Shown here piece after piece: positions 13,758-57,665 of a stretch of 63,663 nt of DNA. The stretch comes from Octopus sinensis (Eukaryota). The stretch's first letter is position 1. Each line of letters begins with the position of its first letter. The DNA lies in NCBI RefSeq assembly GCF_006345805.1, contig NW_021831877.1, positions 1 to 63,663 of the forward strand, written 5' to 3'. The notes below the pieces were generated by a model. The model did not search any database, had not been told where the DNA came from, and was given only the letters and a program-made list of their open reading frames with translations. Both the position numbers and the translations under genes were made by a program.

Positions 13758-14011
13758 TTGTTCTCCGGTTTTACCGGGAAATAATTGAATAATTTCTTAC
13801 CGTTGAACTGTTAGCCACTGTGGCTTTTTATTTACGTGACTATACATAGTCCTGCCAGACTATTTTCGAGCCCCTCCCCCGAATGGGGGTGGGAATTGGA
13901 ATTTTTGAACTGCTTTTTTGAACTACTTTGGAAGAAAAACTTTCTATAGGTTTCCCAGTTTTGTGGGAAACCAATACTCGTAATTTTTGTGTTGTCTAAT
14001 TTCAACAGAAT

Positions 14012-15136
14012 AATGTCTGTTGAAATTATTCACGAAAGTAGTGCTCTTGAGGAGAGCAATGTTAAAAAATTTTCTGAGGTAGCCGCAGTGGCTACCGAGA
14101 AAATTGACATCGATGTCAACCAGCTCGTCGAGCTATTTAAAAAAATGCAAGAGGAGGGTGGTGATGTTAAAATATCACCCTCCGCCAGTATCGTGGAGAC
14201 CGAGAAGCGGACCGTAGTGTTTAAAACTTTCTGTCCACAAAGCAGAAGGTTCAAACACTTTGAAAAAAGTACCATCGAGAAATGCCTGTCCCCGATTTGG
14301 AAGGACATCGTGTACGTCGCCAGGGGACGGGCATATGGCACTGTGGATGTCCGCTTCTCGGGGGAAGAAATGGCCCGCGGGCATTCTGTAAACCCCCTAA
14401 AAACCAAGGAGGTGGTACTTTTTCAAGCTATAGGGGACGCAGGACGTCCCGGTCAGGATTGTAGAAGCCCCGCCGGAAGTAGATCCAGTAGAGGTAGTGG
14501 CCGCCCTATTATAAAAGGGCGGACAAAATAAAAATACTAGAAGTAACATGCTCTACCTCTCGATTTTGGCTCGGCGTAACATTAATATATTAATTCAAGG
14601 AACAGCGGAGGACCTACAGCTCCTTCCTGAGAGGGTGCTCGTGGGCGAGAACGTAGCCCTCAGGGTACAGGTCGAAGGCCGAAAACCCACCTGTTACGCC
14701 TGCGGCAAAAAGGGCCACATTCGTGTAGACTGTCCAGACAAGCAAAAGAAACCGCAGACACCAGGCCCCAGATAATAAAAAAGTCCCTACCCTTGCAACA
14801 CACCTACCCCTACAAAAACAAAATATCCCACTCCTGCTGTTACGGTGCCAACCCCAAAACAGACTGAAGAAAAAACCCAGCCCTCGCACTCACAACCCCT
14901 ACACTATTAAAACCTCCCACCCCCCTAAAAACTGCGGCGCCTACCGAACAAACTTTGCTACCCCAGACGATACCATGGAGGTATCAAGAGGGGGATTTAC
15001 ACCAGTTCGTAAAAGAATTCGTGCAGCATCCCCGTCCACATCCCCTACAAAAAATAATAAAAACAAGACACACACCACAGACACGGAAAAAAAAATCCCG
15101 CTCAACTGGCCCAAAAAAGAAGACAAAAAGAAAATG
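14012..15136 (+). pseudogene. Tx1/L1 ORF1 (gag-like, zinc knuckle), frameshifted
   Basis: CYACGKKGHIRVDC (CX2CX4HX4C) preceded by VEGRKP; Pro/Lys/Thr-rich tail; split over several ORFs. Confidence 0.8.
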
Positions 15137-15423
15137 AACTCATATTAATTGAATTCGACACACAAGACAAATACATAAACGATATTGTGGTTCAGCATCA
15201 GTCAGCAAGACTGTACAACAAAAATACAAAGATCGAAATAGACACGCGTGGATTGCGGAAACGACGTTCAAACAATAAAAGACAGACACCCAAACGCCAT
15301 CCGGCATGTCGCGAACTTGCCGGACTATCTGAAGAAAGAGGAGAAAGAAGGGGCCCACAAACGTGTGGTGAGGTCGGCCCCCACCTCTCCAACGAAATGT
15401 AAGTAGAACTTTTACTTTTTGTA

Positions 15424-17510
15424 ATGGCTTCGCTTAACCTTGGTTGTTTAAATGTGCGTGGTCTGAGTTCGAAGTGGAAGCAGGCTTGTTTCCTCGACGA
15501 CCTCAGATCACATGATATACATGTGATGGTTGCTACAGAGACCAAGCTGGACAGCCTACAAACCTTCTCGCCTCTCCTGAATGGCTACGAGAAAATCATG
15601 TCTCCTGGCCAGACCGGAGGGCGAGGGGGCGTAGTGGTACTGATCCGTAAAGACTTGGCTCTACAGACAAGTACAGTCTATGTAGACCCAGAAGGTGGGC
15701 TGGTCGTCCTTGATGTGACATACAGCAGTAAGGCCTTCAGGTTGATCGGACTCTATGCACCTTGTGCTAGAGGTTTCCAAACTGATTTTTATCGGCGCCT
15801 AGAGGGCTTTCTCGTGACGTCGAAGACTTTAGGGGACTTTAATGCTATCGTTGACGTACACATCGATAGCGTTGGCTCGATCTATAGGAAAGTGAACTCA
15901 CGTCTCGTGGATCTGCTTAAGCGGTTTCAGCTAGCAGATCGTTACAGACTTGACCATCCGAACGTCCCAGAGTGGACCTGGATGAGTGGCGACGGAAGGT
16001 TCAAGTCTTATCTAGACAGGATAGTGATAAGAACTAGAGATAAGTCTAGTTTTAGTTGTCCACAGCTCGTCCAGTGCCCTATACTGACCATAGAATGGTC
16101 ACGTGTAGACTGGACATAGATAGCACACTTAAGATAGGAACCGGCTACTGGAAGCTGAACAAGTCTATTTTGACGCGAGGCATACCGTAGCCGGATTAAG
16201 GTGTTAGTGCAGAGGGCGTTAACCGGAGCCGTGGTTAATAACCGGTGGTGGTTCACCCTCAAAAGAGCCATTCGATTCGGTCCATTAGATTTAGTAAACA
16301 ACTAAGACTAGATAGGGCTAGAATAGAAGGGCAACTAGTTAAGAACTTAGAGGAGGTTGAGGTTGGCTCTGCATCTCACATTTTAGCGGCGAGAACGGCA
16401 TTAGACCGTCACCTCAAAACCAAACATGAGGGATGTAGAGTCCGGGCTAAAGTACGAGCATTGGCCGTGAGGGAATTAATGTTGCCGGATGGTCCCGTAC
16501 GATAGAAACACAGCGTGGAAACGATGCCACAATTGGGTCTCTTGTTGATGAAAACGGATGCACGATCAAGAAGCGGGACGAGATGTGTGAGGCACTTCAC
16601 AAGCACTTCGCCGAGTTGTTCGGGAGGTGCGGGACGCTGGATCATGGTGAGGCCCTTAGGGACTTCCTGTCTGGTGGCCCGCGCCTCTCGACACGAGAGG
16701 CTGAGTGCTGTGAAGGGCCAATCACAGCCGAGGAAGTAATCGAGGTGTTGGGCAAGTGCCCCGGGGAGAAGTCGCCGGGTCTCGATGGTCTGCCCTATGA
16801 ATTTTAGAAGTATGCCAGACTTGTTCGGGCACCTGCTGGCTAGCGTCTACGCCAACTGGCAGCAGAATGGGAGAATTCCAAGTCTGCGAGCCGGAGGCGG
16901 TGACGTTGATCAGGAAGGACCCGAACAAGGGGGACGAGATAGGGAACTTCAGGCCTATACTCTGTTAAACACAGAGTTAAAGATTCTGGCCAAGGTGCTA
17001 GCAAAAAGGTTGGCGCGGGTCGTGGACAAACTTGTCGGGAAGCGCAAACGTGCGCTATCCCCGGCAGAACGATCCACGACAATCTCCACCTTATACGCTA
17101 CTCCTTAGAGAGGGTGGGGAAGCTTTCTGGCGCAGGGGAGCACTGGTACATTTAGACCAGTCCAAAGCATTTGATAGGGTCGACCATCGGTACCTGGCGG
17201 CGGTCCTCGGAGAGGCTGGCCTAGGCCCGACCTTTCGAGGTTGGATGGATCGCTGCTTTGTATAGCGACATCGAGTCTGTAGTCAAAGTGAACGGTTCCT
17301 TTTCGAAGCCGTTCAGGATCGAGCGTTCAGTTCGTCAAGGGTGTCTCCTGTCCTCGCTCCTATACGTATTGGCTCTTGAGCCTTTGCTGCGGAAGTTGGA
17401 GGCACTAGGGGGCGCGCCGCATGATCTATGGTGTGGAAGAGGAGCTACGGCGTATGCGGATGACACCTCCATCATCGTGGCAGACGATGGCTGGGTGTCC
17501 GTCCTTCGAC
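15424..17510 (+). pseudogene. Tx1/L1 ORF2: AP endonuclease + reverse transcriptase, frameshifted
   Basis: LNVRGL, ETK, GDFNA, SYLDRI (APE); KSPGLDGLPYEF, LLNTELKILAKVLAKRL, LDQSKAFDRVDH, VRQGCLLS, AYADD (RT). Confidence 0.92.
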
Positions 17511-31143: not shown

Positions 31144-31515
31144 GAACAAACTGCCGGCATCAGTTGTTAGTTGTCGGAGCACTGCATCCTTCAAAACTTC
31201 CATGCTTCCTGAGATTCGCCAACACTACACCTGATTTTCTCCCCTCCATACACACGCAAGCATGGAACAAACTGCCGGCATCAGTTGTTAGTTGTCGGAG
31301 CACTGCATCCTTCAAAACTTCCATGCTTCCTGAGATTCGCCAACACTACACCTGATTTTCTCCCCTCCATACACACGCAAGCATGTATCTGATTCATACA
31401 CTGTTCGCTTTCCAGACATTTGTACATTACTGCATGTACTTTATACGCACTTTCTGACAAGTTGTGGTCCACCTGAGCACTGTATACAATAATTTCATTA
31501 TTATTTTTTATTATT
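31144..31515 (+). mobile_element. CR1/L2-like LINE 3' end with 121-bp tandem duplication
   Basis: WNKLPASVV..SFK C-terminal motif, 3' UTR ending in (ATT)n; 31144-31264 is duplicated at 31265-31385. Confidence 0.7.
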
Positions 31516-34104: not shown

Positions 34105-34810
34105 AAGGCGGCGAGCTGGCAGAAACGTTAGCACACCGGGCGAAATGCGTAGCCGTATTTCGTCTGCCGTTACGTTCTGAGTTCAAATTCCGCCGAGGTC
34201 GACTTTGCCTTTCATCCTTTCGGGGTCGATAAATTAAGTACCAGTTACGCACTGGGGTCGATGTAATCGACTTAATCCGTTTGTCCGTCCTTGTTTGTCC
34301 CCTCTATGTTTAGCCCCTTGTGGGTAGTAACGAAATATATATGTGTGTGTGTATATCTTTATTACTGTGTTTGTCCTCCACCGTCGTTTGAAAACCTATT
34401 TCTTTATTGCCCACAAGGGGCTAAACACAGAGGGGACAGACAAGGACAGACAAACGGATTAAGTCAATTACATCGACCCCCAGTGCGTAACTGGTACTTA
34501 TTTAATCGACTCCGAAAGGATGAAAGGCATAGTCGACCTTGGCAGAATATGAACTCTGAACGTAGCGGCAGACGAAATACCTATTTCTTTACTACCCACA
34601 AGGGGCTAAACACAGAGGGGAGAAACAAGGACAGACAAACGGATTAAATCGATTTTATCGACCCCAGTGCGTAACTGGTACTTATTTAATCGACTCCGAA
34701 TGGATGAAAGGCAGAGTCGACCTCGACGGAATTTGTACTCAGAACGTAACGACAGACGAAATACCGCAAAGCATTTCGCCCGTCGTACTAACGTTTCTGC
34801 CAGCTCGCCA
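34105..34810. mobile_element. Cluster of SINE B copies: + copy 34105-34336, - dimer 34397-34810
   Basis: Dimer flanked by the TSD tcgtttgaaaacc. Confidence 0.85.
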
Positions 34811-39252: not shown

Positions 39253-39987
39253 AATTTTGCAAACATCACCACGACTACATGACCACCAGTAACATTACCA
39301 TCAGCACCACCACCACCACAACCACTACCACCACAACCACTACCACCACAACCACTACCACCACAACCACTACCACCACCACTACCAACAACAACACAAA
39401 AGCGTAAGCTACAGCAACAACAACTACACCACAAATTCTCACTGTAACAACAACAAATGCACCCTCTATAACCACTACCACCACCACCACGACCACCACC
39501 GCAACAACAACAATACCAACGACAACAACGTCAAGAGAACAGAAAAAAAGCAAAAAGATAAAGAAAAATATATAAGAAAAAAAAAACAAAAACAACTGTT
39601 CCCGAACCTTTCCCTAGTATATCCACCATCCACCTCCATCTTTTTCTTCCACCCCCCCTCTTCACTCTCTCCTCTCACCCCCACCACACCCCACCCCAAC
39701 CATAAAAACAAACAAACAACTGTAACAGCTTTGGTGGAAAAAAAATACAAAAGCTAGGTAGGAGTCCACGCTTGTTAATTAACCGTTCCATTAAAACTGA
39801 CGTTTGATTTTAGATTGGGTACCAAGCAGAAGAATAGCCATAATTATTTCCAAGTGACACTTTCGCTTTCATAAATTACAAAATATAACCGTTCCACTCT
39901 TATTATCCTTAGAGAAAACTTACAGCAATTCTATACTACTTCTCTCTTCTTCATCCTTTTCATTTTATTTATTGGATCTATTTATCT

Positions 39988-40198
39988 ATTATTATTATTA
40001 TTATTATTATAATTATTATTATATTATTATAATTATTATTATTATTATTATTATTATGTTATTATTATTATTATTATTACGTATTATTATTTATTATTAT
40101 TTATTATTATTATTATTACTGTTATTATTATTATTATTGATTATTATTATTATTATTACTATTATTATTATTGTTATTATTTTATTATTATTATTATG

Positions 40199-40229
<31 letters not shown>

Positions 40230-40361
40230 CTTATTACTATTATATTATTATTATTATTACTATTATTATATTGTTATTATTATTATTATTATTGTTATTA
40301 TTATTATTGTTATATTATTATTATGTTATTATTATTATTATTATTATTGTATTATTATTAC

Positions 40362-40395
<34 letters not shown>

Positions 40396-41075
40396 GTTAT
40401 TATATTATTATATTATTATTATTATTACTGTTATTATTATATTATTGTTATATTATTATTATTATTACTATATATTATTGTTATATTATTATTATATTAT
40501 ATTATTGTTATTATTATTATTATATTATTATTATTATTACATTATTATTATTATTATTATTATTATATATTAGTATTGGATTATTATTATTATATTGTTA
40601 TTATTATTATTGTTATATTATTTATTGTTATTATATATATTATTATTATTCTTACTATTATTATTATTGTTATTATTATTATTATTATATTATTGTTATA
40701 TATTATTATTATTATTATTATTATATTAAATATCATTAAATTATTATTATTATTTTATTATTATTATTATTATTATATTATTATTATTATTATTACTATT
40801 ATATATTATTATTATTATTATTATTATTATTATCATTATATTATTTTATTATTATTATTCTTGTTATTATTATATGTTATTATTATTATAATTATTATTA
40901 TTATTATTATAATTATTATTATTATTATTTTATTATTATCATTAATATTATTATTTATTATTATTATTATTGTTATTATTATTATTGTTAATTATATTAT
41001 TATTATTATTATTATTATGTTATTATTATTATTACTATTATTATATGTATATTATTATTATTATTATTATAATTA

Positions 41076-41112
<37 letters not shown>

Positions 41113-41189
41113 TTACTATATTATTATTATTATTATTATGTTATTACCTATTATTATTATTATTATTATATTATATGACTATTATTATA

Positions 41190-41221
<32 letters not shown>

Positions 41222-41299
41222 GTTATTATTATTATTATTATTATTTTATTATTACTATTATTATTGTTATTATTATTATTATTATTGTTATTATTATTA

Positions 41300-41337
<38 letters not shown>

Positions 41338-41469
41338 TTATTATTTTACTATTATTATTATTATTATTATTCTTGTTATTATTATTATTATTATTATTAT
41401 ATTCTTACTATTATTATTATTGTTATTATTATTATTATTATTATTATTGTTATTATTATTATTATTATA

Positions 41470-41500
<31 letters not shown>

Positions 41501-41560
41501 TATTATATAAAATTATAATTATTATTATTATTATATTATTATTATTATTATTATTATTAC

Positions 41561-41596
<36 letters not shown>
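39988..41596. repeat. ~1.6 kb degenerate (TAT)n microsatellite
   Basis: Direct inspection. Confidence 0.97.
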
Positions 41597-51681: not shown

Positions 51682-52247
51682 TTTATATATTATATTTATA
51701 TACTTATATGTATATGATAGATAGATATGTGTGTCTGTGTGTGCGCACATGTATGTTTATATGTGTATATATATGGATATGGGATGCGTCTTCAGTCGAC
51801 ACAGAGACACCATCTGTTAGTGACTGGATAAGCTATACGCATGTGCTTTAAACGAAATGAAATTTGCTTCGGGACATAAGAACAGAGAAAGTTTGTTAAC
51901 CGAATTTTTTTTCAAGACAGTGTCGTTGCGCTATAATGGAATTCGATATGTATTCTTATCAAGATAGTTCAGATAAATACTTTAACAGAGTTTTGGGTCA
52001 AAAACAGTTGAGGAAAAGCTTTTGCTTCAACTAATACAACGTGGGTAATTACATACATGCATATATGCGTGTGTGCACGCGCGCGCGCACACACACACAC
52101 GCTCACACATACATATATACATGTATGTGTGTGTGTATATATATACAGTATATATATATATACAGTGTATATATTATATATACAGTATATATATATATAT
52201 ATATACATTGTATATAATATTATATATATATATATTATATATCTATA

Positions 52248-52286
<39 letters not shown>

Positions 52287-52342
52287 GGTTATCAGTAATA
52301 ATAAGAAAGAAAGAATAAAATACGGCAATGAATGAAATGACG

Positions 52343-55300
52343 GCATTTTGTCTTGGCTACACGCGGGTGGAGGGGCTGGTGACACAAACTTTCATTCAAA
52401 CTTTGAATTTCGTGGTACTGGTCATGCTTTAGCTCGCTCTGATTGAGATGATGCATTCTAGTATCTCAAAATTAATATACAATTATTCATATTGTAGTAT
52501 CCTGCGCCGATGAGAGAAGAAGTACGGGTAAAGTAGAATTTTCTAATTCTTACGCTATCCTAAAACTTGATCTCGAAACGTACGTCCGTAGGTAACGTAA
52601 AATTGCATGATGGATTGCCGTCATTTCATTCTTTCTTTCTTACCTGTCTGTGTTTGCCTTTCAAGTGCTGTGTTTTTACTGAGATCCCCCTTTTAGTAGA
52701 AGGAATAGCTATATCTCTTTGACTGCTATTTCTAAATTCGGTGTGTTGGTGAGGCAATTCGTTGCTAAACCCTAATTACTTAGTATTACTTAAATTTTCC
52801 TCGAATGGGGCTTTTACATGCTGAAATCTACTTGGTGTAATTGATAATTATCCCTAATTAATTAATTTCACCTTTTATTATTACTGATAACCATATTTTA
52901 TCCCAGTAAATGACCACAGCATTTTGTCTTGTCTACACGCGGGTGGAAGGGGGCTGGTGACACAAACTTTCATTCAAACTTTGAATTTCGTGGTACTGGT
53001 CATGCTTAGCTCGCTCTGAGTTGAGATGATGCATTCTAGTATCTCAAAATTAATATACAATTATTCATAATTGTAGTATCCTTGCGCCGATGAGAGAAGA
53101 AGTACGGGTAAAGTAGAATTTTCTAATTCTTACGCTATCCTAAAACTTGATCTCGAAACGTACGTCCGTAGGTAACGTAAAATGCATGATGGATTGCCGT
53201 CATTTCATTCTTTCTTTCTTACCTGTCTGTGTTTGCCTTTCAAGTGCTGTGTTTTTACTGAGATCCCCCTTTTAGTAGAAGGAATAGCTATATCCTCTTT
53301 GACTGCTATTTCTAAATTCGGTGTGTTGGTGAGGCAATTCGTTGCTAAACCCTTAATTACTTAGTATTACTAAATTTTCCTCGAATGGGGCTTTTACATG
53401 CTGAAATCTACTTGGTGTAATTGATAATTATCCCTAATTAATTAATTTCACCTTTTATTATTACTGATAACCATATTTTATCCCAGTAAATGACCCCATT
53501 TTTGCTTGGCTACACGCGGGTGGAAGGGGGCTGGTGACACAAACTTTCATTCAAACTTTGAATTTCGTGGTACTGGTCATGCTTTAGCTCGCTCTGAGTT
53601 GAGATGATGCATTCTAGTATCTCAAAATTTAATATACAATTATTCATAATTGTAGTATCCTCCTGCGCGATGAGAGAAGAAGTACGGGTAAAGTAGAATT
53701 TTCTAATTCTTACGCTATCCTAAAACTTGATCTCGAACGTACGTCCGTAGGTAACGTAAAATTGCATGATGGATTGCCGTCATTTCATTCTTTCTTTCTT
53801 ACCTGTCTGTGTTTGCCTTTCACAGTGTGTTGTTTACTGAGATCCCCCTTTTAGTAGAAGGAATAGCTATATCTCTTTGACTGCTATTTCTAAATTCGGT
53901 GTGTTGGTGAGGCAATTCGTTGCTAAACCCTTAATTACTTAGTATTACTTAAATTTTCCTCGAATGGGGCTTTTACATGCTGAAATCTACTTGGTGTAAT
54001 GATAATTATCCCTAATTAATTAATTTCACCTTTTATTATTACTGATAACCATATTTTATCCCAGTAAATGACCACAGCATTTTGTCTTGGCTACACGCGG
54101 GTGGAAGGGGGCTGGTGACACAAACTTTCATTCAAACTTTGAATTCGTGGTACTGGTCATGCTTTAGCTCGCTCTGAGTTGAGATGATGCATTCTAGTAT
54201 CTCAAAATTTAATATACAATTATTCATAATTGTAGTATCCTGCGCCGATGAGAGAAGAAGTACGGGTAAAGTAGAATTTTCTAATTCTTACGCTATCCTA
54301 AAACTTGATCTCGAAACGTACGTCCGTAGGTAACGTAAAATTGCATGATGGATTGCCGTCATTTCATTCTTTCTTTCTTACCTGTCTGTGTTTGCCTTTC
54401 AAGTGCTGTGTTTTTACTGAGATCCCCCTTTTAGTAGAAGGAATAGCTATATCTCTTTGACTGCTATTTCTAAATTCGGTGTGTTGGTGAGGCAATTCGT
54501 TGCTAAACCCTTAATTACTTAGTATTACTTAAATTTTCCTCGAATGGGGCTTTTACATGCTGAAATCTACTTGGTGTAATTGATAATTATCCCTAATTAA
54601 TTAATTTCACCTTTTATTATTACTGATAACCATATTTTATCCCAGTAATGACCACAGCATTTTGTCTTGGCTATACGCGGGTGGAAGGGGCTGGACACAA
54701 ACTTTCATTCAAACTTTGAATTTCGTGGTACTGGTCATGCTTTAGCTCGCTCTGAGTTGAGATGATGCATTCTAGTATCTCAAAATTTAATATACAATTA
54801 TTCATAATTGTAGTATCCTGCGCCGATGAGAGAAGAAGTACGGGTAAAGTAGAATTTTCTAATTCTTACGCTATCCTAAAACTTGATCTCGAAACGTACG
54901 TCCGTAGGTAACGTAAAATTGCATGATGGATTGCCGTCATTTCATTCTTTCTTTCTTACCTGTCTGTGTTTGCCTTTCAAGTGCTGTGTTTTTACTGAGA
55001 TCCCCCTTTTAGTAGAAGGAATAGCTATATCTCTTTGACTGCTATTTCTAAATTCGGTGTGTTGGTGAGGCAATTCGTTGCTAAACCCTTAATTACTTAG
55101 TATTACTTAAATTTTCCTCGAATGGGGCTTTTACATGCTGAATCTACTTGGTGTAATTGATAATTATCCCTAATTAATTAATTTCACCTTTTATTATTAC
55201 TGATAACCATATTTTATCCCAGTAAATGACCACAGCATTTTGTCTTGGCTACACGCGGGTGGAAGGGGGCTGGTGACACAAACTTTCATTCAAACTTTGA

Positions 55301-56851
55301 ATTTCGTGGTACTGGTCATGCTTTAGCTCGCTCTGAGTTGAGATGATGCATTCTAGTATCTCAAAATTTAATATACAATTATTCATAATTGTAGTATCCT
55401 GCGCCGATGAGAGAAGAAGTACGGGTAAAGTAGAATTTTCTAATTCTTACGCTATCCTAAAACTTGATCTCGAAACGTACGTCCGTAGGTAACGTAAAAT
55501 TGCATGATGGATTGCCGTCATTTCATTCTTTCTTTCTTTCTTACCTGTCTGTGTTTGCCTTTCAAGTGCTGTGTTTTTACTGAGATCCCCCTTTTAGTAG
55601 AAGGAATAGCTATATCTCTTTGACTGCTATTTCTAAATTCGGTGTGTTGGTGAGGCATTTGTTGCTAACCCTTAATTACTTAGTATTACTTAAATTTTCC
55701 TCGAATGGGGCTTTTACATGCTGAAATCTACTTGGTGTAATTGATAATTATCCCTAATTAATTAATTTACCTTTTATTATTACTGATAACCATATTTTAT
55801 CCCAGTAAATGACCACAGCATTTTGTCTTGGCTACACGCGGGTGGAAGGGGGCTGGTGACACAAACTTTCATTCAAACTTTGAATTTCGTTGGGTACTGG
55901 TCATGCTTTAGCTCGCTCTGAGTTGAGATGATGCATTCTAGTATCTCAAAATTTAATATACAATTATTCATAATTGTAGTATCCTGCGCCGATGAGAGAA
56001 GAAGTACGGGTAAAGTAGAATTTTTCTAATCTTACGCTATCTAAAACTGATCTCGAAACGTACGTCCGTAGGTAACGTAAAATTGCATGATGGATTGCCG
56101 TCATTTCATTCTTTCTTTTTACCTGTCTGTGTTTGCCTTTCAAGTGCTGTGTTTTTACTGAGATCCCCCTTTTAGTAGAAGGAATAGCTATATCTCTTTG
56201 ACTGCTATTTCTAAATTCGGTTGTGTTGGTGAGGCAATTCGTTGCTAAACCCTTAATTACTTAGTATTACTTAAATTTTCCTCGAATGGGGCTTTTACAT
56301 GCTGAAATCTACTTGGTGTAATTGATAATATCCCTAATTAATTAATTTCAACTTTTATATTACTGATAACCATATTTTATCCCAGTAAATGACCACAGCA
56401 TTTTGTCTTGGCTACACGCGGGTGGAAGGGGGCTGGTGACACAAACTTTCATTCAAACTTTGAATTTCGTGGTACTGGTCATGCTTTAGCTCGCTCTGAG
56501 TTGAGATGATGCATTCTAGTATCTCAAAATTTAATATACAATTATTCATAATTGTAGTATCCTGCGCCGATGAGAGAAGAAGTACGGGTAAAGTAGAATT
56601 TTCTAATTCTTACGCTATCCTAAAACTTGATCTCGAAACGTACGTCCGTAGGTAACGTAAAATTGCATGATGGATTGCCGTCATTTCATTCTTTCTTTCT
56701 TACCTGTCTGTGTTTGCCTTTCAAGTGCTGTGTTTTTACTGAGATCCCCCTTTTAGTAGAAGGAATAGCTATATCTCTTTGACTGCTATTTCTAAATTCG
56801 GTGTGTTGGTGAGGCAATTCGTTGCTAAACCCTTAATTACTTAGTATTACT

Positions 56852-56853
<2 letters not shown>
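52343..56853 (+). repeat. Head-to-tail tandem array, ~7.8 copies of a ~580-bp non-coding unit (retrozyme-like)
   Basis: Units start at ~52343, 52919, 53496, 54077, 54657, 55235, 55818 and 56398 (last one partial). They differ mainly by 1-nt indels; (TA)n lies on both sides. Confidence 0.97.
52501..52592 (+). ncRNA. Type I hammerhead ribozyme (unit 1; repeated at ~53080-53172, 53662-53751, 54239-54330, 54817-54908, 55398-55489, 55983-56072, 56561-56652)
   Basis: Stem I cctgcg/cgtagg; core CCGATGA; stem II gaga/tctc extended by aag/ctt, gggta/tatcc and gtagaatt/aattcttac; GAAA; palindromic stem III ACGTACGT; predicted cleavage after GUC at 52586. Confidence 0.8.
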
Positions 56854-56884
<31 letters not shown>

Positions 56885-57665
56885 CATTGATATATATATA
56901 TATATGTGCGTGTGTGTGTTTATGTATAAGTACGTTAGTGAGTGTATGTACATACATAGGACCTTCTAGAAAGCTGTATAAGGATGTCTATCGTTGATGC
57001 ATATATGCTGCAACTGAATCAACTAACTGTACATGAATGCTACATTAAAGGGAATTAGGGCACTTATGCAGCAGAAACACGTGTCGGATTGGAATCCAAT
57101 GTGAATCTAATGAGAATAAGCTTGTAAGAAACAAGTTTTGAAGATATTGTATAATTCTAGATTCTTCTTTATGATGTCTTAATTATTCATATACATATAT
57201 ACATGTATGCATATATGTATGCATTCATATATATATATATACATATATGTACACGAGCATAGACAATCTATGTAACTATCTGTCTATTTATGTATGAAAC
57301 GTAATCAAGTGACCAACCGGACCATCAGATGTTGTGACATATCACTGGTCACAATGCACTTTGTTTTGTTTTAGCCTTCGAACGACGCCACCCCGCTGGC
57401 TAGGGGAGCAGGCCGACGTTTCCACCTGATCGAAAGGGTGACTGGAGCAACGTGAAAGGAGGTGTTTTGTTCAAGGACACAACGCACCGCCCGGACTGGG
57501 AATCGAAACAACGGTCTAGCGATTATAAGTGCAACGTCCTAATCACTAGGCCACGCACCTTCACACAAATACACACGCACGCACACACACACACACACAC
57601 AAACACATACACACACACGTATATACGTGGAGTTGAATACATGTCCGGTCATAGATATATATATG

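What the first reader, a model, noticed from the sequence alone, without database searches (positions are those of the whole stretch)
52501..52592. Atypical hammerhead: CCGAUGA core, extended stem II, palindromic stem III
Seen: U4 of the CUGANGA core is C in the units (unit 3 has 1-nt losses in both core strands). Stem II is a ~60-nt bulged hairpin and stem III is only the palindrome ACGUACGU. Known: palindromic or unstable stem III is typical of hammerheads that cleave as double-hammerhead dimers. Inference: cleavage may need pairing of adjacent units, so tandem organisation could act as a copy-number-dependent switch. The core variant would be missed by strict CUGANGA searches.
Basis: partly seen in the sequence, partly recalled or inferred. 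Interest (0 to 1): 0.75.

Follow-up and report, generated by a model that had tools for sequence, protein, structure and literature searches.

The report
Recurrent U4C hammerhead in Penelope-mobilised retrozymes
This is a predicted self-cutting RNA motif in each 578-base unit of a young, scattered jumping repeat; its odd core letter arose twice independently in this genome and founded successful subfamilies both times, so it is likely a slower but working ribozyme rather than a wreck.

Summary
All eight units of a 7.8 x 578-bp array carry a type I hammerhead fold with a 61-nt stem II and palindromic stem III. Seven read CCGAUGA; unit 3's losses look like read errors. The array is one insertion of a dispersed, protein-free retrozyme family with Penelope-type footprints: (TA)n targets, two fixed 3' ends, inverted 5' arms. 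U4 is ancestral and the majority (C4 in 167 of 478 cores). C4 arose once here, and independently in a sister family (1,024 of 4,642 cores). It is the only catalytic-core change seen founding subfamilies, and each time a core-flanking helix later gained a G-C pair by two changes. Private variants fixed across whole C4 arrays suggest a one-unit (circular) template, hence residual cleavage. The palindrome is shared with U4 relatives and C4 does not predict array length, so the copy-number switch is the known dimer rule, not something C4 adds. U4C is known from a viroid. This scan earlier noted other retrozymes in this genome and CCGAUGA cores elsewhere. Activity is untested. New variant of a known kind.

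The parts
52340..56856 (+). Tandem array of 7.8 x 578-bp non-coding units (family A retrozyme insertion, long arm)
   Evidence: longest open frame in a doubled unit 64 codons
52501..52592 (+). Type I hammerhead fold, unit 1 (the finding)
52507..52513 (+). 5' core strand CCGAUGA; U4C at 52508
   Evidence: derived state by tree
52514..52574 (+). Stem II: 4-bp base plus 53-nt bulged extension; pair 3 is G-C in this subfamily, A-U in its parent subfamily
52578..52585 (+). 8-nt palindrome forming stem III (predicted intermolecular or inter-unit helix)
   Evidence: same in U4 relatives and family B
52586..52587 (+). Predicted self-cleavage site after GUC
   Evidence: by homology to hammerhead consensus; not shown to cut
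53081..53172 (+). Hammerhead, unit 2
53662..53751 (+). Hammerhead, unit 3, with two 1-nt losses (probable read errors)
54239..54330 (+). Hammerhead, unit 4 (identical to unit 1)
54817..54908 (+). Hammerhead, unit 5 (identical to unit 1)
55398..55489 (+). Hammerhead, unit 6
55983..56072 (+). Hammerhead, unit 7 (indels in the stem II extension)
56561..56652 (+). Hammerhead, unit 8
54525..54534 (+). Fixed 3'-end site S1 (201-210 nt after the cut site), shown in one unit; inferred reverse-transcription start; the array's 3' end uses it
   Evidence: 115 of 216 internal segment ends at 195-213
54628..54635 (+). Fixed 3'-end site S2 (304-311 nt after the cut site), shown in one unit
   Evidence: 69 of 216 ends at 293-316
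52283..52329 (-). Two short inverted fragments of the unit (short second arm; the outer one ends at S2)
52136..52286 (.). (TA)n target, left side
56852..56905 (.). (TA)n target, right side

Best explanation
The motif is a type I hammerhead fold in each unit of a dispersed, protein-free tandem retroelement, and its U4C core is a derived, inherited variant that likely still cuts, more slowly and only as a double hammerhead. Inferred cycle: an array is transcribed; two units pair through the palindrome and swap stem I strands; two cuts release a 578-nt monomer that is ligated to a circle; the enzyme of an autonomous Penelope-like element nicks a (TA)n run, starts copying at one of two fixed internal sites and rolls round the template, giving tandem, often two-armed insertions. 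Shown: fold, covariation, dispersal, target, fixed ends, two origins of C4, later stem strengthening. Inferred: cleavage, circles, reduced rate, identity of the enzyme.
For: Dispersed family: 182 matches from the 40 best-scored of 3,013 candidates, on many large contigs. Penelope footprint: 184 of 216 internal ends at two sites, 173 of those 184 next to (TA)n; 48 of 69 two-armed loci use S1 on one arm and S2 on the other; this matches the internal starts and AT-rich targets in PMC11167929 and the layouts in PMC8557442. C4 is derived twice: a tree of 69 natural units needs 2 changes, and C4 monophyly is rejected, p-AU 1e-5. With the core left as wildcards, the first 100 listed copies show 27 C4, 70 canonical and 3 other changes, each at its own locus; 7 of 100 single-locus changes in the 3' core; family B has 69 C4, 30 U4, 1 other. 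After U4C, family A changed stem II pair 3 from A-U to G-C by two substitutions and stem I A-U to G-U; all 3 stem changes keep pairing. Family B changed stem I pair 4 from U-A through U-G to C-G inside the C4 clade. Locus-private substitutions are fixed across all or nearly all units, and in family A both arms, of C4 arrays (L078 8 of 8, L090 4 of 4, L096 10 of 11, L093 3 of 3; five family-B loci), as expected from a one-unit template. U4C lowers activity in vitro but kept a viroid infectious (PMC3088659 Discussion, second-hand).
Against: No cleavage data. A Penelope enzyme inserts uncleaved RNA equally well in vitro, and hammerhead mutants did not impair it (PMC11167929). No insertion began at the cut site: 12 of 225 run starts mapped to position 1, but 11 clearly continue upstream into the hammerhead and one only briefly (loci were picked for having a core, so this is biased). 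Conservation of the rest of the core within C4 lineages is weak evidence: only 24 fixed changes span the family-A C4 lineage, so fewer than one is expected in the core by chance. Stems could be kept for another purpose. Whole-array variants could come from DNA-level homogenisation or an unseen parent array. No autonomous partner was found.
Confidence: 0.62

Rival explanations
1. The C4 hammerhead is effectively dead and dispensable: the element spreads from uncut multimeric transcripts, and arrays are homogenised by template jumping or at DNA level.
For: Hammerhead mutants do not affect Penelope insertion in vitro, and no RNA ends were found at the site in that system (PMC11167929). Naiad PLEs thrive without canonical hammerheads (PMC8557442). 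Family B combines C4 with a mismatched 10.1-11.1 pair and a GUU site. The stem II extension is less perfectly paired in the youngest subfamily.
Against: No other catalytic-core change founds a subfamily in 300 listed copies. Two-step gains of G-C pairs next to the core follow U4C in both families. Private variants are fixed through whole arrays.
Confidence: 0.2
2. U4C is an adaptive brake: slower cutting protects the circular template from re-opening, so C4 lineages out-transpose their U4 parents.
For: Two independent origins, each founding a young, homogeneous clade; family-B C4 has 1,024 cores. In family A, C4 pairs with G16.2 in an inactive fold (P 0.63 against 0.12) and the dimer is 1.4 kcal/mol less favoured. 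How circles avoid re-cleavage is left open in PMC7229834.
Against: The misfold effect is absent in family B (P 0.01-0.02 against 0.01-0.13). U4 subfamilies of similar age are also abundant. Two origins of a transition at a tolerant site are compatible with drift and hitch-hiking. There is no effect on array length.
Confidence: 0.12
3. C4 RNAs are cheaters cut in trans by U4 siblings: in a double hammerhead the partner supplies the 5' core strand, and the palindrome is shared within each family.
For: U4/C4 heterodimers of family A are predicted as stable as or better than C4 homodimers (-7.5 against -6.8 kcal/mol); U4 copies are the majority.
Against: C4 lineages strengthened their own enzyme strand (stem II in A; the stem I change in B would mismatch a U4 partner's 3' strand). 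Pairing within one transcript should win on concentration (inference).
Confidence: 0.05
4. One reading: tandem organisation is a copy-number-dependent switch tied to this atypical core.
For: The monomer stem III is predicted not to form and the dimer is favoured. Loci with 2 or more tandem sites are commoner in the youngest C4 subfamily (17 of 29, against 13 of 69 U4).
Against: The same palindrome is in all U4 relatives. Older C4 loci are no longer than U4 loci (6 of 20 with 2 or more sites; p=0.35); family B shows no difference (p=0.56). Needing two units is the published rule for these ribozymes. No host function is indicated.
Confidence: 0.05

Closest known systems
Metazoan non-LTR retrozymes (coral, mussel, axolotl; PMC7229834; vertebrate survey bioRxiv 10.64898/2026.07.22.740005)
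   Same: Tandem non-coding units, one type I hammerhead each, GC under 45% (36%), dispersed; weak stem III and dimer dependence as in the axolotl motifs; Penelope-like elements proposed as mobilisers.
   Different: 578-bp unit against about 300 bp typical; 61-nt stem II; U4C core fixed in whole subfamilies, not seen in the parts of these papers that I read; fixed RT-start sites and two-armed (TA)n insertions.
Hammerheads in pseudo-LTRs of Penelope-like elements (PMC4209133; review PMC6765202)
   Same: Type I, palindromic minimal stem III, predicted dimer activity, family-level core variants occur (U3-A8 in Schistosoma).
   Different: No ORF; canonical 6-bp stem I and 4-bp stem II base without the extra nucleotide after A9 typical of the minimal motifs; the variant is at position 4.
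U4C viroid hammerhead (Ambros and Flores 1998, known to me only through PMC3088659)
   Same: Same core substitution; reported as much slower in vitro yet sufficient in vivo.
   Different: There a viroid sequence variant; here a heritable state of over 1,100 genomic copies in two lineages, on a dimer-dependent scaffold.
Poseidon element PAc of Anolis (PMC11167929)
   Same: Two internal reverse-transcription start sites downstream of the hammerhead, AT-rich target.
   Different: PAc is autonomous; its optional tail is described as 30-40 bp for Penelope, whereas S1 and S2 here lie about 100 nt apart.

Membership tests
Type I hammerhead ribozyme | Three-way junction with stems I, II, III, open at stem I | tested here: met
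   Stems I and II P 0.94-0.98 alone and in the unit; covariation in stem II, wobble change in stem I; stem III only as a dimer
Type I hammerhead ribozyme | Core C3 U4 G5 A6 N7 G8 A9, G12 A13 A14 A15.1, U16.1 H17 | tested here: not met
   All met except U4 (C). Position 4 is U in ancestral relatives and U4C is a described natural variant (PMC3088659), so it is filed as a core variant, not a canonical member
Type I hammerhead ribozyme | Self-cleavage after H17 | not testable with these tools
   Only contigs were available; indirect signs
Type I hammerhead ribozyme | Loop I / loop II tertiary contact | not tested
   A 2x2 internal loop follows the 4-bp stem II base; contact not modelled
Rfam hammerhead families | Match to a covariance model | tested here: not met
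   No hammerhead hit at E<=10 for the window, nor for U4 relatives of families A and B
Non-LTR retrozyme | Tandem non-coding units each with a type I hammerhead | tested here: met
   8 of 8 units; longest open frame 64 codons
Non-LTR retrozyme | Dispersed genomic copies | tested here: met
Non-LTR retrozyme | Expression as monomeric linear and circular RNA | tested here: inconclusive
   No holder on record as RNA; runs only guessed to be RNA hold contigs across the core; contigs cannot show ends or circles
Non-autonomous Penelope-like element | Fixed 3' ends with optional tail, 5' truncation, inverted 5' copy, partial tandems, microsatellite target | tested here: met
Non-autonomous Penelope-like element | Sequence shared with the pseudo-LTR of an autonomous partner | tested here: inconclusive
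   One young Neptune-like family tested (30 loci): no shared sequence; other families not searched
Autonomous Penelope-like element | RT and GIY-YIG ORF | tested here: not met
   No ORF in the unit; no frame of 150 codons or more was seen joined to an array in the 138 loci scanned, judged by eye

The most novel reading that the evidence does not exclude
U4C is a repeatedly selected brake on the ribozyme. Retrozyme lineages tune self-cleavage down so that enough monomers are released but the circles survive as templates for the Penelope enzyme, then re-stabilise the flanking helices. A hidden class of over a thousand attenuated hammerheads per genome would then mark the most recently active lineages, and near-isogenic U4/C4 pairs would test directly whether cleavage is needed for Penelope-type mobility.
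Probability: 0.17. Interest if true: 0.72.

Novelty: new variant of a known kind. Interest (0 to 1): 0.47.

Why it matters
Whether the hammerheads of Penelope-like elements and retrozymes must cut for the element to move is open: one study finds abundant circles (PMC7229834), another finds cleavage dispensable in vitro (PMC11167929). This genome offers a natural experiment run twice. A near-invariant core base changed, the lineage kept spreading, and its helices were then reinforced. Sibling units that differ at position 4 only within the motif (adjacent units in L115) make the question cheap to test. Practically, censuses that demand CUGANGA miss at least 1,191 cores here (35% of family A, 22% of family B), including the youngest subfamily of family A. 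No host function is suggested.

Tried and rejected
Rejected. C4-stabilised misfold as a general cause: holds in A, not in B. Pile-up of 5' ends at the cut site: none seen, but sampling was biased; inconclusive. A-to-I editing written back into DNA: changes along the C4 lineage are A>G 12, G>A 9, T>C 8, C>T 5 and private fixed changes are mixed; no support. Autonomous partner: a Neptune-like element 1 kb from the array in L093 is a separate insertion behind its own (TA)n run, has no Pfam hit at E 0.001 and shares no sequence with units A or B. Empty allelic site or haplotig of the window locus: none among 40 scored of 617 candidates. Expression: no RNA holder listed; no molecule ends can be read from contigs. 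Unequal-crossover satellite as sole origin: rejected by dispersal, fixed ends, inverted arms and TA flanks. Papers not held: Ambros and Flores 1998, Nelson and Uhlenbeck 2008, Lunse et al. 2017, so no rate for U4C is quoted. PMC3907566 passages gave nothing on U4C.

Full report
OBSERVATION. Unit 1 has stem I at 52501-52506/52587-52592, core CCGAUGA at 52507-52513, a 61-nt stem II, GAAA, a perfect 8-nt palindrome at 52578-52585 and a GUC site. It folds better than shuffles (z -2.48; 4 of 200 as good). Seven of 8 units have the C4 core; unit 3 lacks one C and one A. Differences among the window's units are 66 gap positions and 16 mismatches, and no indel was listed at 3% in four runs laid on the motif. 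I therefore read unit 3's losses as long-read errors (inference). Rfam finds no hammerhead here, but it finds none in U4 relatives either.

CONTEXT. The motif repeats every 578 bp in a 7.8-unit array (52340-56856) between two (TA)n runs, with two short inverted fragments at the 5' end. The unit is 36% GC and has no frame over 64 codons. The genome is 2.72 Gb; its size, microsatellite load and earlier notes of this scan point to an octopus, which I did not verify. The unit is dispersed: 182 matches from the 40 best-scored of 3,013 candidates. In 138 loci (137 fetched plus the window), 184 of 216 internal segment ends fall at two sites, 201-210 and 304-311 nt after the cut site, and 173 of these 184 abut (TA)n. 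In 48 of 69 two-armed loci one arm ends at each site (test prompted by note e1-8807173). Partial tandems, an inverted 5'-truncated copy, an optional tail and (TA)n targets are described for Penelope-like elements (PMC8557442, passages), and two internal RT starts are shown for one of them (PMC11167929, parts 1-2 of 4). The element fits a non-LTR retrozyme (PMC7229834, passages and Discussion; bioRxiv 10.64898/2026.07.22.740005, part 1 of 5 and passages). I did not find its partner enzyme: the one Neptune-like family tested shares no sequence with it.

HOW COMMON IS C4. Exact-core counts in family A are 88 + 79 = 167 with C4 and 54 + 257 = 311 without (the 257 is by subtraction, and in the first 100 rows all non-C rows are T). 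With the core left open, the first 100 of 442 matches are 70 canonical, 27 C4 and 3 other; the first 100 of 617 matches at the 3' core have 7 single-locus changes. A larger sister family B, with the same palindrome and a short stem II, has 4,642 exact cores, 1,024 with C4. In its C4 branch and that branch's closest sister, the first 100 of 1,209 matches are 69 C4, 30 U4 and 1 other, with position 4 fully linked to a stem II marker. So U is the majority, but C4 is an inherited subfamily state and the only catalytic-core change seen to found subfamilies (position 7 and the cut-site base also vary in family B, as the consensus allows).

HISTORY. A tree of 69 natural full units (41 A, 28 B; loci without a full unit left out) needs two changes at position 4, both forced by well-supported branches. 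C4 held as one clade is rejected (p-AU 1e-5), and each C4 clade is nested among U4 units (the bootstrap had not fully settled). The window belongs to the youngest family-A clade (median between-locus distance 0.012 against 0.019-0.050 for the other large groups). After U4C, family A fixed 24 changes, 3 of them in stems I and II: one A-U to G-U and a two-sided A-U to G-C. A U4 branch has the same three states, so recombination cannot be excluded, though the flanking markers follow the C4 parent. In family B the fourth pair of stem I went from U-A to U-G with C4 and then to C-G in a sub-clade. Against over-reading: with so few fixed changes, the untouched core within C4 lineages is not significant by itself.

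FOLDING. The intramolecular stem III is not predicted to form (P 0.00, alone or in the linear or circular unit). Forcing the monomer hammerhead costs 3.9 kcal/mol (3.2 for U4), while the strand-swapped double hammerhead is favoured by 6.8 kcal/mol (8.2 for U4) over two monomer folds. In an unconstrained 872-nt two-unit fold the palindromes did not pair with each other (P about 0.01), so the dimer is possible rather than dominant in this model. C4 pairs with G16.2 in an inactive fold in family A (P 0.63 against 0.12) but not in B. Dimer dependence through a palindromic stem III is the published rule (PMC4209133, parts 1-2 of 4; PMC6765202, passages) and is shared by all U4 relatives.

DOES IT STILL CUT. 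This is not shown. For: substitutions private to one locus are present in all or nearly all units, and both arms, of young C4 arrays (L078 8 of 8, L090 4 of 4, L093 3 of 3, L096 10 of 11), and five family-B C4 loci show the same. That is what repeated copying of a one-unit template gives, and a one-unit circle normally needs two cuts (test prompted by note e1-8665879). U4C is reported to cut activity considerably in vitro yet allow viroid infectivity (PMC3088659, passages and section 8; the primary paper was not held). Against: hammerhead mutants do not impair Penelope insertion in vitro; no insertion starts at the cut site in a biased sample; and some within-array variation exists (for example position 280 in L082, 10 of 12). 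RNA evidence is weak: no holder is on record as RNA; three runs guessed to be RNA, from three studies, have contigs across the core and cut site with no change listed at position 4.

THE SWITCH IDEA. The youngest C4 subfamily has longer arrays than U4 loci (median 2.36 units against about 1.1-1.2; p=7e-5), but older C4 loci do not (p=0.35), and family B shows no difference (p=0.56). Array length therefore tracks youth or some other trait, not C4. Nothing points to a host-serving switch.

NOVELTY. Each ingredient is known: retrozymes, palindromic dimers, U4C in a viroid. I found no paper on U4C subfamilies in animal retrozymes or on octopus retrozymes in search listings for hammerhead ribozyme + U4C + variant (2 papers), hammerhead ribozyme + octopus (5), retrozyme + octopus (3) and hammerhead + CCGANGA (0). 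Lunse et al. 2017 and the supplements of the retrozyme and Penelope papers, which I did not see, may list such variants. Earlier notes of this scan describe other retrozyme families in this genome, a CCGAUGA retrozyme in another genome and U4C in phage hammerheads (unchecked leads); none matched this unit by sequence. What is added here is the double origin, the scale (at least 1,191 cores), the later stem gains and natural U4/C4 pairs.

VERDICT. A real hammerhead core variant in a Penelope-mobilised retrozyme, likely slower but working (0.62); dead and dispensable 0.20; adaptive brake 0.12. New variant of a known kind; interest 0.47.

Noticed in passing
L172-L201, L232-L291 (e.g. G000:C1:3710597-3711727): Sister retrozyme family B: about 541-560-bp units, 68-71% like family A in the tail, same palindrome, short stem II opening on a U-U or A-A mismatch, GUU site; 4,642 exact cores, 1,024 with C4.
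   Followed up: yes
L226:3278-3475: A short inverted insertion of a third hammerhead family with a CCGACGA core in both arms; look-alikes in other loci carry other letters at position 4. A possible further C4 case; not counted.
   Followed up: partly
L093:3276-4574; L202-L231: Young Neptune-like Penelope family (clade name from recalled motifs) with open frames of about 811 codons in several copies, 97 scored copies at 90-100% identity, ending at two sites about 40 nt apart in (TA)n. No convincing hammerhead was seen in its 3' repeat in 5 of 30 loci scanned, and there was no Pfam hit.
   Followed up: partly
L115:2013-2919: Adjacent units with C4 and U4 and otherwise identical hammerheads. C4 creates a CpG, so deamination can restore U4; 4 U4 copies carry the C4-linked downstream marker.
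   Followed up: partly
family A loci L031-L170: In two-armed insertions one arm ends at S1 and the other at S2 in 48 of 69 loci; S1/S1 in 3, S2/S2 in 0.
   Followed up: yes
runs X1, X7, X17, X19 on window 54246: Contigs of four differently labelled organisms hold both letters at position 4 (T share of summed depth 86/163, 265/271, 1617/3130, 4/8), so C4 may predate their split; labels are coded and were not resolved.
   Followed up: partly
window 15403-16116 and 13950-14528 (+): Two open frames (238 and 193 codons); the first resembles the endonuclease start of a non-LTR retrotransposon (recalled resemblance, not searched).
   Followed up: no
window 39982-41596: 1.6-kb (TTA)n array, 546 copies.
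   Followed up: no
window 31144-31385 and 34390-34765: Two-copy tandem duplications of 121 bp (100%) and 184 bp (89%).
   Followed up: no
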